A stretch of 64,000 nt of DNA, taken from the human T2T-CHM13v2.0 reference genome, Homo sapiens. Positions 17,184 through 34,482 of the stretch are shown piece by piece (position 1 is the first letter of the stretch; each line of letters opens with the position of its first letter). The position numbers were made by a program, and so were the translations under genes. The notes below the pieces were generated by a model, which saw nothing but the letters and a program-made list of their open reading frames with translations, was not told the DNA's origin and made no database searches. Location: the NCBI RefSeq assembly GCF_009914755.1, contig NC_060946.1. One strand, 5' to 3'.

Positions 17184-19149
17184 ATTGGCAGCATCTTCTT
17201 TTTTACAGATGTCTTGTACAGTGTCCTCATTAGCAATGTCATATACAGCGTCCTTATTAGCGAATTCGTATACAGCATCCTCATTAGCGATGCCATATAC
17301 AGCGTCCTCATTAGCGATGTTGTATACAGCGTCCTCATTAGTGATGTCGTATAGAGCGTCCTCATTAGCGATGTCATATACAATGTCCTCATTAGCGATG
17401 TCATATACAGCAACCTCATTAGCTATGTCTTGTAAAGCATCCTCATTAGCGATGTCATATACAACGTCCTCATTAGCGATGTCGTATACAGCGTCCTCGT
17501 TAGCGATGTCTTGTACGGTGTCCTTATAAGCAATGTCGTCTACAGCGTCCTCGTTAGCATGCCTTGTGGGTGCCATTAGCGATGTCATATACAGCATCCT
17601 CATTGGTGATGTCTTATATGGTGTCCTCATTAGCGATGTTGTGTACAGCGTCCTCGTTAGCAATGCCTTGTACAGTGTCCTCGTTAGCGATGCCATATAC
17701 AGTGTCCTCATTAGTGATGGCTTGTACACTGTCCTCATTAGTGATGTCGTGTACAGCATCCTCGTTAGCGTGCCTTGTACGGTGTCATTAGCGATGTCGT
17801 ATACAGCGTCATAATTAGCGATGTCTTATACGGTGTCATCATTAGTGATGTTGTGTACAGCGTCATCGTTAGCGATGCCTTGTATGGTGTCCTCATTAGC
17901 GATGTCGTATACAGCGTGCTCACTAGCGATGTCTTTTTTTATATATATATACTTTAAGTTTTAGGGTACATGTGCACATTGTGCAGGTTAGTTACATATG
18001 TATACATGTGCCGTGCTGGTGCGCTGCACCCACTAACTCATCATCTAGCATTAGGTATATCTCCCGATGCTATCCCTCCCCCCCCAACCCCACAACAGTC
18101 CCCAGAGTGTGATATTCCCCTTCCTGTGTCCATGTGATCTCATTGTTCAATTCCCATCTATGAGTGAGAATATGCGGTGTTTGGTTTTTTGTTCTTGCGA
18201 TAGTTACTAGCGATGTCTTATACGCTGTCCTCATTAGCAATGTCGTGTACAGCGTCCACGTTAGCGTGCCTTGTCGGTGCCATTAGCAATGTCGTATAAA
18301 GCGCCCTCATTGGTGATGTCTTGTACAGTGCCCTCATTAGCGATGTTGTGTACAGTGTACTTGTTAGCGACGGCTTGTAGGGTGTCCTCGTTAGCGATGT
18401 CGTATACAGCTCGTTGGCGATGCCGTGGGCGGCGTCCTCTTTGGCGATGCCCTGGGCGGCGTCCTCGTTGGCGATGCCCTGGGCGGCGTCCTCGTTGGCG
18501 ATGCCCTGGGCGGCATCCTCCTTGGCGATGCCCTGGACGGCATCCTCGCTGGCGATGCCCTGGGCGGCGCCCTCGTTGGCGATGCCCTGGGCGGCGTCCT
18601 CCTTGGCGATGCCCTGGGCGGCGTCCTCTTTGGCGATGCCCTGGGCGGCGTCCTCGTTGGCGATGCCCTGGGCGGCGTCCTCCTTGGCGATGCCCTGGGC
18701 GGCGTCCTCGTTGGCGATGCCGTGGACGGCGTCCTCCTTGGCGATGCCCTGGGCGGCGTCCTCGTTGGCGATGCCCTGGGCGGCGTCCTCGCTGGCGATG
18801 CCGTGGGCGGCGTCCTCGCTGGCGATTCCGTGGGCGGCGTCCTCGCTGGCGATGCCGTGGGCGGCGTCCTCGTTGGCGATGCCGTGGGCGGCATCCTCGT
18901 TGGCGGTGCCCTTGTCGGCGGCCTCGTTAGCGATGCCCTGGGCGGCGTCCTCCTTGGCGATGCCCTGGGCGGCGTCCTCCTTGGCGATGCCCTGGGCGGC
19001 GTCCTCGTTGGCGATGCCCTGGGCGGCATCCTCGTTGGCGATGCCCTTGTCGGCGGCCTCGTTAGCGATGTCGTGTACAGTATCCTCGTTAGCGATGTCG
19101 TGTGTGGCGTCCTCGTTAGTGATGTCGTGTACGGTGTCCTCATGGGGAG
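17184..19149 (-). repeat. 27-bp tandem repeat array (FAM230 repeat exon)
   Basis: Unit ggcgatgccctgggcggcgtcctcgtt, homogeneous at ~18411-19070; decayed units (agcgatgtcatatacagcgtcctcatt) at 17200-17930 and 18206-18410; acceptor ttttctag at 19150, donor at 17183. Confidence 0.95.
17936..18205 (-). mobile_element. 5'-truncated young L1 (L1PA2-like 3' end) with a 14-bp target-site duplication
   Basis: tactttaagttttagggtacatgtgcacattgtgcaggttagttac ... gagtgagaatatgcggtgtttgg; actagcgatgtctt at 17922-17935 and 18206-18219. Confidence 0.92.
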
Positions 19150-22100
19150 CTAGAAAAACACAGAGTTAAGGTCAGTGCCCTGGTGGTGGAGACTGTGAAT
19201 CACCCAGGGGCTTGCTTGGTGTGATGCATGGAGGTGGCTGATCACAGCATGGGTCAAGCTGATGCTGGGACATCCTCCCAGGTGGACCTGCACTAGTGAA
19301 GCTAAGGGATGTGGCTCAGAACACTTTCTGCAGTGGGAATCAGTTTCCAGGTTCAGGTATGCATTATCTGGTGAAGTGGGGAAATATAAAAAATAAAAAT
19401 TGACAAATTCATGAAAAGCCTTCCATGAGTGCAAGTGTGAGTTTTTTATCCACTTTACATTCAGTATGCATTCACACATACAAAATATTTTTACAAGAAA
19501 TCAGAAATTTTAATTTTTGTCAGTTATGTGAAATCTAACTTAGCTGCCAGCATAAAGATTCTATCTCATTTACTTGGTCTCGAGAAAATCTAGCACATAG
19601 TAAGTAGACCAAAATGTTTATTAAATGAAAACACAGAGCAGAGATAGGGGGGCTGCTAGGCAGACTGGGTTGCACCTGATTACCCGGATGATAATAAACT
19701 GCACAAAACCTCGGTCAAATTAATATTGAAACTGCCTTTTGCTTGGGCTCGTTTCCCTTGCGGAAGAAGGATGACCAAGAAGATGAACAGGAAAGAAATG
19801 AGAAACAGAGGCCTTTGCTTAGTAGCTAAAGGCCACCTTCTGTAACATGAAATAGTCTACAAGTGGCCTTGAACTCTGCCGTGATTTAGTGACAGAGTTC
19901 CCTCATGTCTTCTACCCAGGTTGAAGTCCAGCAAAATTGCGACTGTCCTCTTTACAACTTGCGAGACCACACTGCTTCTGCATTTGCCTGTTGTATGTAT
20001 GAGATTTACACTTGTTTTAAAGCAACATTTTGTTTCAGTTGGGCTGGTGGCCATACCCGGCACTAGCCGGTCAATAGTGAGATGGCTCCTCATGGAGGAG
20101 GCTTGGCTTGAGGCTGAGGGTCTTTAACCCACATATACAAGAGAGTTGCCACTAAGGGATGGAAGCCAGGCTAATAACCAAGTGCCACACAGAGTTCCTA
20201 TCTGTCCCTCCTCACCATTTTTGGCTGGCAGGATTTGAGCATTTTAGGGCTTGGGAAGATAGTATTACTAAATCTACTAAAATACATCACCCATCCTTAT
20301 AGACTTTGGCCAGTTGCTGAGCAAATTAACTTCACAAATGAAGTGGGCCACACTGGCCTTTGTGGTCCCCCACTCCTCTTAGAATTTGTGAGCGTGGGGC
20401 CTACTGGAGGGTGGGAGGTGGGAGGAGGGGGTGGATCAGGAAAAATAACTGATATTAGGCTCAATATATGGGTGATGCAATAATCTGTACAAAAAACTCT
20501 CATAACACACATTTATATATGTAGCAAACCTGCACATCCTGCACATGTACCCCTGAACTGAAAAGTTAAATAAAAAAAGGGATCTGTGAGCTGAGCCAAA
20601 CACCTGGGGATCTTTGTGCTTTTGACACACTGATGACTATGCCGGTCCGTGGGGAGATGAGCCTATAACTGCCCTGGGTTGTGTGACCACGGAGGCCACT
20701 TTATGATGATGGGCAGTGTCTGGGGCCTTTTGGGCTCGTTGCTTTAGGGCTTATACATGAATGCTGGACTCCGTGTGTGGTGGTGAACACCCCATGACTA
20801 AGTGCATGTCAGCGTCAGCACTGGTCCACACTCCTGGGTTCGTGTTTTCACTGTTTCATTCAGGAACTCGGGAGCTGGGGCCACTCCCTTGGCCCTTCAG
20901 GTTCTCCACCTGAGCAGTGGGGATAATAAGGCAGACCCGGGGATGGCTCTGGTGAGGGTGGAGGAGTCACTGTACAGAGAGAGTAGAGCGGGGGTGGATT
21001 TTATTGTTAGAAGTGGACACTGGTGATTGGGTTGTATAAGTGGGAAATCTCTCCTGAGAAAACACACAGCCTCACCTGTACAGAAACACACACATTCACA
21101 CCACACGATGCAGCCTCACACAAGACACCACCAATCCTCAAGCACCCAACTCAGCACCACCCAAAAGGGAGCACAGCTGCTTCCTCAAAATTTGGCCATA
21201 ATTTTTCCCTGGGGAATTCAGGTTTTAAAAAAACACTTCCCCTATACTTATTCCTATCACAATCCCAGGATCAGGGAGGCTCTTCACATTGAAACCAGGC
21301 AAGGATGCCACACCTTTCTTGGCATCCAGATTGTTTTCTTGGCAAGTGATTCCAGAATACTTACTAGATTCAAGCCTCAGAGGGGCCACCTGCACCACCT
21401 GCAATACAGAAACAAAGCTTTTTGAGGGGTATGTCATATTGTGGATTGTTTGCACAAGGCTCTGTTTCTCTCAATGAATACTGAAAACTTGAGCAGAAAG
21501 TGTAGTCAACTTCAAGGCCTCCAAAACAAGGGTGGGATACACACTGGAAAAGACATCAGCTTCTGGATGGTGGATCTCTCAGGTCCACGTAGGTTGGCAA
21601 GTGCAAAATACTGAATCCAAGGAGAAGACATTGCTTCCAAGGACAAGGACCCCAAGGATACAGTCTACAACCTGAAGCCGTCATAGCTAAATGCCATTTT
21701 GGATTACATATCAGTTGCTAAGAGTCACTTCTTCCTCCCCCTCAGAAAACTGCATTTAATACCTGTCATGGACATTGTCATTTTTTCACATGTAAAGTCA
21801 GTTGAAAAAGAAAGACACCAAGAAAGGAACATTTCTATTTCAGAGAAAGCAAGGCAACCTTACCCTCGCGTTGACTGGCCTCTCTCCATCTCCTCTGTCC
21901 TTGTGAACTAGAGACTCCTCAGAGGCTAGGAAGACACAGAGCAACAGTTAGTCATAGATGCTTTTGTTCATGAGTTATTCAGGGAGCTCTGCTTAATGTG
22001 GACAACAGGACAGTGTGTGTGGATGTGTTTCATTAAAAGCACAGCTTGAGCTCCTGCTAGAAAATCTTCCCTCGTGGAAAGACAGGCAAGAACGAGGAGC

Positions 22101-34100: not shown

Positions 34101-34482
34101 CCAGCTGCCACCATGCCTGGCTAATTTTTTGTATTTCTAGTAGAGACAGGGTTTCACTGTAATGGCCAGGATGGTCTTGATCTCCTCACCTTGTGATCCT
34201 CTTGCCTTGGCCTCCCAAAGTGCTGGGATTACAGGCCTGAGTCAAGATACATATTTTTTAAATGAAGAAAAATTTCAAAGATACTCTGCTTGGTACAATA
34301 ATCAAATATATAAATTGAGGAATAAAACATAATCATGAAACATATTTATAACTGCATATGGAAAATACAGAGGCTAATTTTTTAAATAACATATTTTGAA
34401 AACATTAACTAGTAATTTGAAAAGATCGCATTTGACAGGCCAGTATGAACATACCTTGAATGCAGCCACACAGGTTCCCCAT
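18218..34482 (-). CDS. Hypothetical spliced FAM230 ORF, 430 aa: [134 protein letters not shown]...(DAAQGIANE)n...
   Basis: Manual join of GT-AG exons 34455-34482 (28 nt), 32416-32474 (59), 31923-31947 (25), 28890-28976 (87), 23925-23990 (66), 21864-21925 (62), 21365-21398 (34) and 18218-19149 (932) gives 1293 nt with compatible phases and no internal stop. Translation in vivo is not shown. Confidence 0.45.
20393..20578 (+). mobile_element. L1 3' end fragment
   Basis: ggggcctactggagggtgggagg ... aaacctgcacatcctgcacatgtacccctgaact, then A-tail. Confidence 0.8.
22900..23860 (+). mobile_element. Old L1 (L1M) ORF2 3' and UTR fragment
   Basis: aaaatgggcaaaagact ... cattagtcattagggaaatgcaaatgaaaa ... 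aacattatgcttagtgaaataagccagacacaaaagg. Confidence 0.75.
24861..25138 (+). mobile_element. AluS
   Basis: Full Alu. Confidence 0.88.
26985..28210 (+). mobile_element. Old L1 fragments (ORF2 and 3')
   Basis: gatgtagcaaaagcagtccttagagggaaat ... aaaatcaataaaaccaaaagctggttctttga ... aagcaccaggcccagatggttt. Confidence 0.75.
28225..28538 (-). mobile_element. AluS with target-site duplication
   Basis: Full Alu flanked by atatactcaattttt and atatgctcagttttt. Confidence 0.9.
32984..33095 (+). mobile_element. Alu left-arm fragment
   Basis: caggcatagtggctcacacctgtaatcccagc ... gaccagcctgaccaacatggtaaaacccc. Confidence 0.8.

What the first reader, a model, noticed from the sequence alone, without database searches (positions are those of the whole stretch)
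18218..34482. The FAM230 'lncRNA' hides a phase-coherent 430-aa spliced ORF with a lipid-anchor-like N-terminus and acidic repeats
Seen: eight minus-strand exons (28, 59, 25, 87, 66, 62, 34 and 932 nt) have canonical GT-AG sites and matching phases (1,0,1,1,1,0,1). They join without a stop into [134 protein letters not shown]...(DAAQGIANE)n. The ORF track cannot show this because the exons are tiny. Knowledge: Gly2 plus nearby Cys plus a polybasic run is the classic myristoyl/palmitoyl/basic membrane-targeting signal. Inference: FAM230 is a current or recently decayed protein-coding gene for a membrane-tethered, disordered protein with a basic head and acidic tail, with length set by a VNTR. 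Similar FAM230 protein predictions may already exist in databases; I cannot check.
Basis: partly seen in the sequence, partly recalled or inferred. Interest (0 to 1): 0.85.

Follow-up and report, generated by a model that had tools for sequence, protein, structure and literature searches.

The report
Half-decayed coding gene labelled lncRNA
The 430-codon spliced reading frame in FAM230H is real, but it is an already recorded, half-decayed copy of a fast-evolving, testis-expressed protein gene family of apes and Old World monkeys.

Summary
Joining the RefSeq FAM230H exons gives a 430-aa ORF from the transcript's first AUG (34482) to a stop at 18218, with GT-AG at every junction.

It is not new. 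The same CDS pattern (28/59/25/87/66/62/34 nt plus a repeat exon) is already annotated as protein-coding for two paralogues in this assembly. FAM230 ORFs and testis or sperm peptides are in print.

All 30 protein relatives found are from apes or Old World monkeys. All 13 that start Met-Gly keep Gly2 and Cys7. 12 of 30 end in a conserved acidic motif that FAM230H encodes out of frame, beyond 3 stops and several frame changes.

The 27-nt repeat exon is open for at least 221 codons in all six frames, so its length is not coding evidence. The human copies differ at 16 nonsynonymous and 3 synonymous positions, so purifying selection is not detectable. Between older family branches the coding exons diverge 2.3 times faster than their introns.

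FAM230I keeps an intact 240-aa ancestral-type ORF.

Verdict: a partly decayed paralogue of a real coding family. The lipid anchor is plausible but untested.

The parts
34455..34558 (-). Exon 1. The 5'UTR is 76 nt; the CDS part 34455-34482 is 28 nt and encodes MGNLCGCIQ plus one base. The donor is GT.
   Evidence: This is the first AUG of the transcript.
32416..32474 (-). Exon 2 (59 nt), the basic run.
   Evidence: Same size and AG/GT sites in 9 of 9 close human copies.
31923..31947 (-). Exon 3 (25 nt).
   Evidence: A homologous 25-nt exon is annotated in RFPL3S.
28890..28976 (-). Exon 4 (87 nt), the fastest-diverging coding exon of the family.
   Evidence: 25 of 87 positions differ from FAM230I, against 7.5% in the flanks.
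23925..23990 (-). Exon 5 (66 nt). It is optional in the family: absent from FAM230I and from many monkey and ape models.
21864..21925 (-). Exon 6 (62 nt).
21314..21398 (-). Exon 7. The annotated 34 nt are 21365-21398. An in-frame 51-nt extension (21314-21364) runs to a second GT donor. Monkey and gibbon models use this longer form.
   Evidence: Read-through of this exon matches the C-terminus of P0018/P0019 at 93%.
18218..19149 (-). Coding part of exon 8. The 5' array of 27-nt units (DAAQGIANE type) is in frame with exons 1-7. It is followed by about 50 codons of frame-shifted repeat and the stop at 18220-18218.
17550..18217 (-). Decayed middle of exon 8. The ancestral-type repeat reading changes frame and meets further stops at 17828-17826 and 17616-17614.
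17184..17549 (-). 3' part of exon 8. It holds ancestral-type Tyr-containing repeats and the conserved CKKEDA motif. It is open, but in a different frame from the 430-aa ORF, and forms part of a second 215-aa ORF.
   Evidence: (59% identity to P0009 residues 104-217).
16311..16351 (-). Annotated downstream exon that overlaps the remnant of the conserved acidic C-terminal motif (tblastn match at 16317-16361). The 430-aa ORF does not reach it.
   Evidence: Further C-terminal remnants lie at 15471-15518 and 13918-13959.
35343..39045 (-). Three further identical copies of the start-codon exon (40-nt probe at 35343-35382, 36159-36198 and 39006-39045), in units of about 816-890 bp interleaved with AT-rich arrays.

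Best explanation
FAM230H is a young segmental-duplication copy of a gene family found only in apes and Old World monkeys in my searches. The family is expressed in testis and is, or was, protein-coding.

The ancestral product is a protein of about 220-260 aa that is probably disordered. It has:
- an N-terminal Met-Gly-x-x-x-Ser/Gly-Cys motif followed by a Lys/Arg-rich stretch;
- degenerate 8-9-residue acidic repeats;
- a conserved acidic C-terminal motif (ENDLIVESISDDEDF type).

In FAM230H and its LCR22 sisters the promoter-proximal AUG and the seven small coding exons are intact. The repeat exon has been rebuilt by minisatellite expansion, frame shifts and Tyr-to-stop changes. As a result the ORF ends inside the repeat and the ancestral C-terminus is lost.

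Shown: the anatomy, the homology, the breaks, and the lack of detectable purifying selection among the human copies.

Inferred:
- The transcript is scanned from its first AUG in testis germ cells and yields some protein, limited by nonsense-mediated decay.
- That protein would be N-myristoylated on Gly2 and palmitoylated on Cys5/Cys7. Its basic head would sit on the inner face of a membrane and a variable acidic tail would hang off it.
- This particular copy is decaying or drifting and is not maintained.
For: Anatomy of the ORF.

The same CDS exon pattern is annotated as protein-coding in two paralogues: LOC128966590 (1338-nt CDS) and LOC128966596 (1425-nt CDS).

Exons 2-7 have identical sizes and AG/GT sites in 9 of 9 close human copies. 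Exon 1 was found in 7 of the 9 fetched blocks.

Family:
- 30 of 30 named-source hits are catarrhine.
- 13 of 30 start Met-Gly with Cys7, and 12 of those 13 fit the recalled PROSITE-type pattern.
- 12 of 30 carry the C-terminal motif.

Breaks in H: the ancestral C-terminal segment at 17187-17546 is in another frame. Stops sit at repeat position 4 at 18220-18218, 17828-17826 and 17616-17614.

An intact ancestral-type 240-aa ORF exists in FAM230I transcripts NR_110539.2 and NR_165489.1. Its repeat exon is 97% identical to bonobo P0009.

Historical coding signal:
- Coding exons diverge faster than their flanks. H vs FAM230I: 51/309 against 261/3615, p = 2.4e-7. At non-CpG sites p = 3.5e-8.
- On the H branch the figures are 9.5% against 3.7%, p = 0.0017.
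- The three length differences between family branches are all multiples of 3: exon 2 is 59 vs 62 nt, exon 4 is 87 vs 84 nt, and exon 3 is 25 vs 31 nt as annotated.

Expression and peptides, from passages read:
- Major expression only in testes (PMC6162681).
- FAM230A has 6 strong peptides, almost all from testis or sperm, and is listed as 'unplaced' (PMC11601488).
- B4DYQ5 peptides come from testis and cancer cell lines (PMC12679747 section 17).
Against: - No datum here shows that FAM230H itself, as opposed to a sister copy, is transcribed or translated.
- Among the human copies the power is low: 19 differences, and 16:3 does not differ from the neutral 3.5:1 (binomial p = 0.36). Weak constraint cannot be excluded.
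- Stop-free survival of the short exons is weak evidence. In a neutral simulation 11-22% of descendants stay open over exons 1-4.
- dN/dS between deep paralogues is 0.9-1.4. Synonymous sites also look raised, which protein-level selection alone does not explain (note).
- The monkey and ape proteins are automatic predictions that presuppose an ORF.
Confidence: 0.65

Rival explanations
1. FAM230H is a currently functional protein-coding gene. Its product is a dually acylated, membrane-tethered, disordered protein, and its acidic tail length is tuned by the VNTR.
For: - First AUG, intact exons and splice sites.
- N-terminal motif kept in 13 of 13 Met-Gly relatives, and also in the deep paralogue RFPL3S.
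- Family peptides in testis or sperm.
- Faster-than-intron evolution of the coding exons on the H branch, which fits a selected reproductive protein.
- RefSeq's Gnomon pipeline models two sister copies as coding.
Against: - The conserved C-terminal motif of the family is lost from the ORF.
- About 50 codons of the ORF read the repeat in a shifted frame.
- The stop is 1303 nt upstream of the last junction.
- 16 nonsynonymous against 3 synonymous differences among the copies.
- One neighbouring start-exon unit of FAM230J has ACG in place of ATG.
- ORF length in the repeat is automatic, because all six frames are open.
Confidence: 0.2
2. FAM230H acts, if at all, only as a non-coding RNA or as DNA (LCR22 structure). 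The ORF is an inert fossil that is never productively translated.
For: - RefSeq curates it as lncRNA (annotation given with the finding).
- The stop position fits the recalled nonsense-mediated-decay rule.
- No constraint is seen among the copies.
- The published PeptideAtlas audit rates the related FAM230C peptides as aberrant and leaves FAM230A 'unplaced'.
Against: - The ORF starts at the first AUG with G at +4.
- Family peptides come mostly from testis or sperm, and not only from cancer cell lines.
- Exon-specific acceleration is hard to explain for an RNA-only function.
Confidence: 0.14
3. The ORF is a chance alignment of small exons in a non-coding gene.
For: The repeat exon is open in every frame.
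Against: Exon-for-exon homology to predicted CDS in 16 catarrhine species. The pattern is annotated as CDS in sister copies. The length differences between family branches are all multiples of 3.
Confidence: 0.01

Closest known systems
RefSeq Gnomon models LOC128966590 and LOC128966596 (FAM230 paralogues on chr22 of T2T-CHM13), and the TrEMBL FAM230A entry B4DYQ5
   Same: Identical CDS exon pattern 28/59/25/87/66/62/34 nt followed by the repeat exon. Exon identity to H is 98.5-99.4%. They end at the same family stop inside the repeat.
   Different: They differ in repeat number and in the arrangement of repeat blocks: 445 and 474 aa against 430 aa. One uses a start-exon unit that encodes Ser5-Cys6-Cys7. 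H is curated as lncRNA. I could not retrieve B4DYQ5 itself; I know it only from passages read.
FAM230I (human lncRNA, chr22 23.88 Mb) and its ape and monkey counterparts, e.g. bonobo LOC100991901 (P0009), gorilla P0006 and gelada P0007
   Same: Same exon order, the same N-terminal Met-Gly...Cys7 motif and basic run, and acidic 8-9-residue repeats.
   Different: FAM230I keeps one uninterrupted 240-aa ORF through to the conserved acidic C-terminus. It lacks exon 5, has an 84-nt exon 4 and has only a 356-nt repeat exon. Its coding exons differ from H at 16.5% of positions, against 7.2% in the flanks.
RFPL3S (RFPL3 antisense lncRNA, chr22 32.8 Mb)
   Same: Exons 1-4 are homologous: exon 2 (71 nt annotated, 62 nt aligned), exon 3 (25 nt) and exon 4 (87 nt). 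Its transcript NR_002596.2 opens with Met-Gly-Asn, keeps Ser6 and Cys7, and stays in frame through exon 4.
   Different: The basic run is lost, there is no repeat exon, and the ORF is only 98 aa. Exon identity to H is about 68%. I found no paper linking it to FAM230: one co-mention, in a paper on differentially expressed genes, seen only as a search listing.
SH4-type dually acylated N-termini, e.g. Src-family kinases and G-alpha-i subunits (recalled, not from a call)
   Same: Gly2, a small residue at position 6, nearby Cys residues, and a basic stretch.
   Different: There is no sequence homology and no folded domain behind the anchor. No Pfam family was found above cut-off. Acylation is untested.
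Q9UF83 / FAM230C, a protein entry made of nine-residue repeats
   Same: The same 27-nt repeat family. Peptides are recorded in PeptideAtlas.
   Different: It is reported as a single-exon ORF on chr13p, with peptides only from cancer cell lines, and is rated aberrant. The chr13 copy's spliced ORF is 306 aa in my reconstruction, and its exon 1 was not found in the fetched block.

Membership tests
FAM230 / RFPL3S gene family (catarrhine MG-x3-S/G-C, acidic-repeat proteins) | Shared exon structure (28-nt start exon, 59, 25, 84-87, optional 66, 62, 34 nt, repeat exon) with GT-AG sites | tested here: met
FAM230 / RFPL3S gene family (catarrhine MG-x3-S/G-C, acidic-repeat proteins) | N-terminal Met-Gly, Cys7, then the DSKKPSKK-type basic run | tested here: met
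   13 of 13 Met-Gly relatives keep Gly2 and Cys7, and 11 of the 13 have 6-8 K+R in residues 11-30.
FAM230 / RFPL3S gene family (catarrhine MG-x3-S/G-C, acidic-repeat proteins) | Acidic 8-9-residue repeats of the D-x-x-x-D/G-I-x-N-E type | tested here: met
   In H the 5' array is a derived Gly/Ala-rich variant without Tyr.
FAM230 / RFPL3S gene family (catarrhine MG-x3-S/G-C, acidic-repeat proteins) | Conserved C-terminus (CKKEDA...ENDLIVESISDDEDF type) in frame with the N-terminus | tested here: not met
   The motif is present in the window, but in another frame or exon, behind 3 stops.
N-myristoylated and palmitoylated (SH4-like) membrane anchors | Sequence pattern G-{EDRKHPFYW}-x(2)-[STAGCN]-{P} directly after Met1 (pattern recalled from PROSITE PS00008) | tested here: met
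   The H start exon, and the gorilla entry P0002 that starts with the same 10 residues, fit. 12 of 13 relatives fit. The Pongo model P0027, with Asp3, does not.
N-myristoylated and palmitoylated (SH4-like) membrane anchors | Cys within the first ~10 residues, and an adjacent basic cluster | tested here: met
   Cys5 and Cys7. Residues 1-65 hold 18 K+R against 2 D+E.
N-myristoylated and palmitoylated (SH4-like) membrane anchors | Demonstrated lipid attachment and membrane localisation | not testable with these tools
A search for FAM230 with 'myristoyl' gave 3 papers. In the one I opened (PMC12679747) the word refers to a retroviral gag motif. The other two I saw only as listings.
Decayed coding gene (pseudogene-like paralogue) | Homology to a coding family, plus frame shifts or premature stops relative to it | tested here: met
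Decayed coding gene (pseudogene-like paralogue) | Neutral substitution pattern among recent copies | tested here: inconclusive
   16 nonsynonymous: 3 synonymous, dN/dS about 1.5, not different from neutral (p = 0.36). Only 19 differences.
Long non-coding RNA (as curated by RefSeq) | No ORF with evolutionary or experimental coding support | tested here: not met
   The ORF is homologous to predicted proteins. Family-level peptides are reported. Support is at family level only, not specific to H.

The most novel reading that the evidence does not exclude
The FAM230/RFPL3S loci are a family of genuine, positively selected, dually acylated germ-cell membrane proteins. FAM230I is an overlooked intact human member. 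The LCR22 copies, FAM230H included, still make N-acylated proteins whose acidic tail length differs by copy and probably by haplotype.

The unstable 22q11.2 low-copy repeats would then carry a sperm or testis protein family that varies in copy number and length. Selection on that family could bear on why these repeats persist and expand. The reported bias of FAM230C/F transcripts towards Y-bearing spermatids (PMC9834047, passage read) would then concern protein-coding messages.
Probability: 0.1. Interest if true: 0.75.

Novelty: new member of a known kind. Interest (0 to 1): 0.38.

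Why it matters
About ten human 'lncRNA' genes in the 22q11.2 low-copy repeats, plus RFPL3S, turn out to share a coding ancestry. They have a conserved lipid-anchor-like start, and their coding exons evolve faster than their introns.

For annotators this has three consequences:
- FAM230H is best described as a partly decayed coding paralogue. The same ORF is labelled coding in two sister copies and non-coding in the others within one annotation release.
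- FAM230I deserves a coding review.
- Testis and sperm peptides assigned to FAM230A cannot be placed because the copies are nearly identical.

For FAM230H itself the result is modest: the ORF is known in kind and probably not maintained.

Tried and rejected
Domain and fold leads
- Pfam gave nothing above cut-off for 4 relatives and the H repeat exon.
- Two Atlas searches gave no usable feature hit. One relative had only a low-confidence model, with pLDDT 0.40.
- Rfam found no family in the 64-kb window.

Parent gene
- I suspected the nearby testis gene C22orf42. I rejected it because its CDS exon sizes (232, 75, 65, 28, 65, 28, 161, 28, 74 nt) do not resemble the family's.

Chance ORF: rejected.

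ORF length as coding evidence: rejected for exon 8, because all six frames are open.

CpG hypermutation as the cause of fast exon divergence: rejected, because non-CpG sites show the same excess.

Stop-free survival as proof of constraint: weak.

Relatives outside apes and Old World monkeys
- None appeared among the 30 hits.
- The word search left out 7280 unnamed candidates and is length-limited. H-RFPL3S flank divergence of about 23% suggests the family may be older. Absence is therefore not shown.
- I did not use the third protein search.

Literature
- FAM230 alone: 160 papers, of which I saw a listing of 25.
- I read passages only from PMC11601488, PMC7098633, PMC5906017, PMC6162681, PMC9834047 and PMC12679747, plus section 17 of PMC12679747 in full.
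- FAM230 + Ribo-seq: 4 papers. I opened two of them, PMC12679747 and PMC9834047, and had read PMC11601488. None of the passages read describes Ribo-seq on FAM230. I saw PMC12143037 only as a listing.
- FAM230 + myristoyl: 3 papers. In the one I opened, the word does not concern FAM230.
- RFPL3S + FAM230: 1 co-mention, seen as a listing.
- FAM230I: 6 papers; the 5 listed do not have it in title or abstract.
- B4DYQ5 / Q9UF83 / BAG63817: 5 papers.
- Supplementary tables were closed. Additional table S5 of PMC12679747, which should list the peptides, may bear on which copy is translated.

Full report
1. Observation

I joined the twelve RefSeq exons of FAM230H (NR_136559.2) on the minus strand. 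All 11 donors are GT and all 11 acceptors are AG. An ORF of 430 codons runs from the ATG at 34482 to the stop at 18220-18218.

The ATG is the first AUG of the transcript, in the context TTTCTTATGG.

The tail is a 27-nt minisatellite. TRF finds 35 copies at 18208-19143, with 54/81-nt higher-order units at 89% matches.

2. What counts as evidence and what does not

Exon 8 is open for 221-309 codons in all three sense frames and all three antisense frames. Three quarters of the ORF's length therefore comes for free from a stop-poor repeat. Only the 361 nt of exons 1-7 can speak for coding.

3. The ORF is already recorded

The same RefSeq release annotates two sister copies on chr22 as protein-coding Gnomon models with exactly this CDS pattern:
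- LOC128966590: 28/59/25/87/66/62/34/977 nt.
- LOC128966596: the same, ending in 1064 nt.

Passages read in the literature:
- Delihas (PLoS One 2020) states that FAM230 sequences carry large ORFs, for example a 454-aa translation of a FAM230A transcript classed as a nonsense-mediated-decay target. He also names a GenBank protein entry carrying that ORF.
- His 2018 paper mentions a putative Ensembl protein gene called FAM230A.
- The PeptideAtlas audits list FAM230A with 6 strong peptides, almost all from testis or sperm, and call it 'unplaced' because it maps to several regions.
- The published version says peptides for the TrEMBL entry B4DYQ5 come from testis and cancer cell lines, and that the nearest locus is FAM230D.

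The eight LCR22 lincRNA genes of this family show major expression only in testes.

4. The family

After that, a by-reference search with the repeat exon found four primate proteins. A profile of those four found 30 proteins.
- All 30 are from apes or Old World monkeys, in 16 species.
- 13 of the 30 start Met-Gly, and all 13 keep Gly2 and Cys7. Twelve of the 13 fit the recalled PROSITE myristoylation pattern. Eleven of the 13 have 6-8 Lys/Arg in residues 11-30.
- 12 of the 30 end in a conserved acidic motif, which follows a CKKEDA-type motif.
- No Pfam family scored above cut-off.

The family architecture is therefore: a lipid-anchor-like start, a basic run, a short linker, acidic 8-9-residue repeats that contain Tyr, and an acidic C-terminal motif.

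5. Human members

DNA searches of the reference with exons 2 and 4 found:
- nine close copies (96-100% identity), eight on chr22 plus FAM230C on chr13;
- FAM230I (83-97% identity);
- two distant matches at chr22 32.65 and 32.83 Mb (70-75% identity).

The 32.83-Mb match is RFPL3S. Its annotated 71-, 25- and 87-nt exons correspond to FAM230 exons 2-4. RFPL3S transcript NR_002596.2 opens with Met-Gly-Asn, keeps Ser6 and Cys7, and stays in frame through exon 4, giving a 98-aa ORF. The basic run is gone.

FAM230I transcripts NR_110539.2 and NR_165489.1 hold an uninterrupted 240-aa ORF, from the Met-Gly start to the conserved acidic C-terminus. Its repeat exon is 97% identical to the bonobo model P0009. 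So the human genome still has one copy with the ancestral architecture, and it too is labelled lncRNA.

6. FAM230H against the ancestral architecture

- Exons 2-7 have the same sizes and AG/GT sites in 9 of 9 close copies. Exon 1 was present in 7 of the 9 fetched blocks.
- Exon 7 has a second, in-frame donor 51 nt downstream. The monkey and gibbon models use it.
- In exon 8 the 5' array (about 19147-18395) is a Gly/Ala-rich derivative of the repeat, in frame with the head.
- The ORF then reads about 50 codons of the repeat in a shifted frame, returns, and ends at a stop. That stop sits where the repeat has Tyr, His or Gln.
- Downstream, the ancestral reading changes frame several more times and meets two more stops, at 17828-17826 and 17616-17614.
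- The last 360 nt of the exon encode ancestral-type repeats and the CKKEDA motif, openly but in another frame.
- Remnants of the final acidic motif lie further on, at 16317-16361.
- All the LCR22 copies examined end at the same family stop, so the break predates their duplication.
- An orangutan model (P0012) that carries the FAM230-specific exon 5 still runs in frame to the CKKEDA motif.
- The stop lies 1303 nt upstream of the last junction. By the recalled 50-55-nt rule this predicts nonsense-mediated decay.

7. Selection

Among the nine close copies:
- The 361 coding nt show 19 differences, 16 nonsynonymous and 3 synonymous. dN/dS is about 1.5 and is not different from neutral (p = 0.36).
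- Exon and intron identities are alike.
- One start-exon unit next to FAM230J has ACG for ATG.

Between deep paralogues:
- dN/dS is 0.9-1.4 over exons 1-4.
- In a neutral simulation 11-22% of descendants stay stop-free. Openness alone proves little.

The unexpected result is that the coding exons diverge faster than their own flanking introns:
- H vs FAM230I: 51 of 309 positions against 261 of 3615, p = 2.4e-7.
- Non-CpG sites only: 15.9% against 6.3%, p = 3.5e-8.
- H vs RFPL3S: 64 of 199 against 499 of 2192, p = 0.004.
- With RFPL3S as outgroup, the excess is strongest on the H branch: 9.5% against 3.7%, p = 0.0017, over 168 exon and 1630 flank columns. On the FAM230I branch it is 6.5% against 3.8%, p = 0.10.
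- Within exon 1 the 28 coding nt have 7 differences, while the 76-nt 5'UTR has 4.

The three length differences between branches are all multiples of three.

I read this as past positive selection on the protein, as is common for reproductive proteins. It is also the best internal evidence that the family was truly coding. Synonymous sites also look raised, and I cannot explain that (note).

8. Mechanism

Shown: the anatomy, the homology and the breaks.

Inferred:
- In testis germ cells the transcript is scanned to its first AUG.
- The product, as far as it escapes decay, is myristoylated on Gly2 and palmitoylated on Cys5/Cys7. Its head (net charge +16 over residues 1-65) lies on a membrane.
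- A tail of net charge -46 follows. It falls on the disordered side of the charge-hydropathy boundary.
- Tail length varies by copy: 430 to 574 aa, and 1532 aa conceptually for FAM230G.

The derived 5' array has lost the Tyr of the ancestral repeat. Whatever the Tyr-containing repeats did is probably not done by FAM230H.

I put 0.65 on 'partly decayed paralogue of a real coding family, possibly still translated'. I put 0.2 on full present function, 0.14 on RNA- or DNA-only, and 0.01 on chance.

9. Novelty and score

- The ORF as such is known in kind.
- FAM230H is one more member, and it is not annotated as coding.
- Four points were not found in my literature searches: the conserved lipid-anchor-like start, the link to RFPL3S, the intact FAM230I ORF, and the exon acceleration. 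Those searches cover open-access papers and preprints only.
- Interest is 0.38.

Noticed in passing
window 34453-34492, 35343-35382, 36159-36198, 39006-39045 (minus strand); G000 chr22:20,719,411-20,741,993: The start-codon exon, with ATG and GT donor, occurs four times identically in the window, in units of about 816-890 bp. At least 27 units at 813-bp spacing lie upstream of FAM230G. The gene's first exon is therefore part of a macro-repeat.
   Followed up: partly
window 34811-34940, 36348-38504, 39364-41224: Long AT-rich arrays (periods 2, 5, 7, 12 and 25) lie between and beyond the start-exon units. Delihas describes a translocation-breakpoint type A / AT-rich motif in these genes, and exon 1 sequences derived from it.
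   Followed up: no
G000 chr22:23,884,837-23,909,741 (FAM230I; loci L017, L018, L021): Two of the four RefSeq lncRNA transcripts (NR_110539.2 and NR_165489.1) hold an intact 240-aa ORF of the ancestral family architecture. A third (NR_165490.1) holds 243 aa. NR_165488.1 lacks it.
   Followed up: partly
G000 chr22:32,823,837-32,835,195 (RFPL3S; loci L019, L020), and a lone exon-4-like match at chr22:32,652,459-32,652,603 beside RFPL2: RFPL3S shares exons 1-4 with FAM230 and keeps the Met-Gly...Ser6-Cys7 start in a 98-aa ORF. A further exon-4 remnant lies next to RFPL2.
   Followed up: partly
G000 chr22:20,757,821 to about 20,766,437 (FAM230G repeat; loci L002, L022): The 27-nt array spans about 8.6 kb, with open frames of 1417-2211 codons. 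The conceptual spliced ORF is 1532 aa, although the annotated FAM230G transcripts stop before this exon.
   Followed up: partly
window about 17759 to 16591 (minus strand; exon 8 3' part plus exon 9): A second ORF of 215 aa, in another frame, carries the ancestral-type repeats and the CKKEDA motif. By position it corresponds to the single-exon Gnomon models 'putative uncharacterized protein LOC388882' in two sister copies. I did not check this by alignment.
   Followed up: no
L023:125-152 (minus), the start exon of LOC128966596: This start-exon unit encodes a variant N-terminus with Ser5-Cys6-Cys7 in place of Cys5-Gly6-Cys7. Gly2 is kept.
   Followed up: no
window 1-64000: No Rfam family reaches its gathering score on either strand.
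   Followed up: yes
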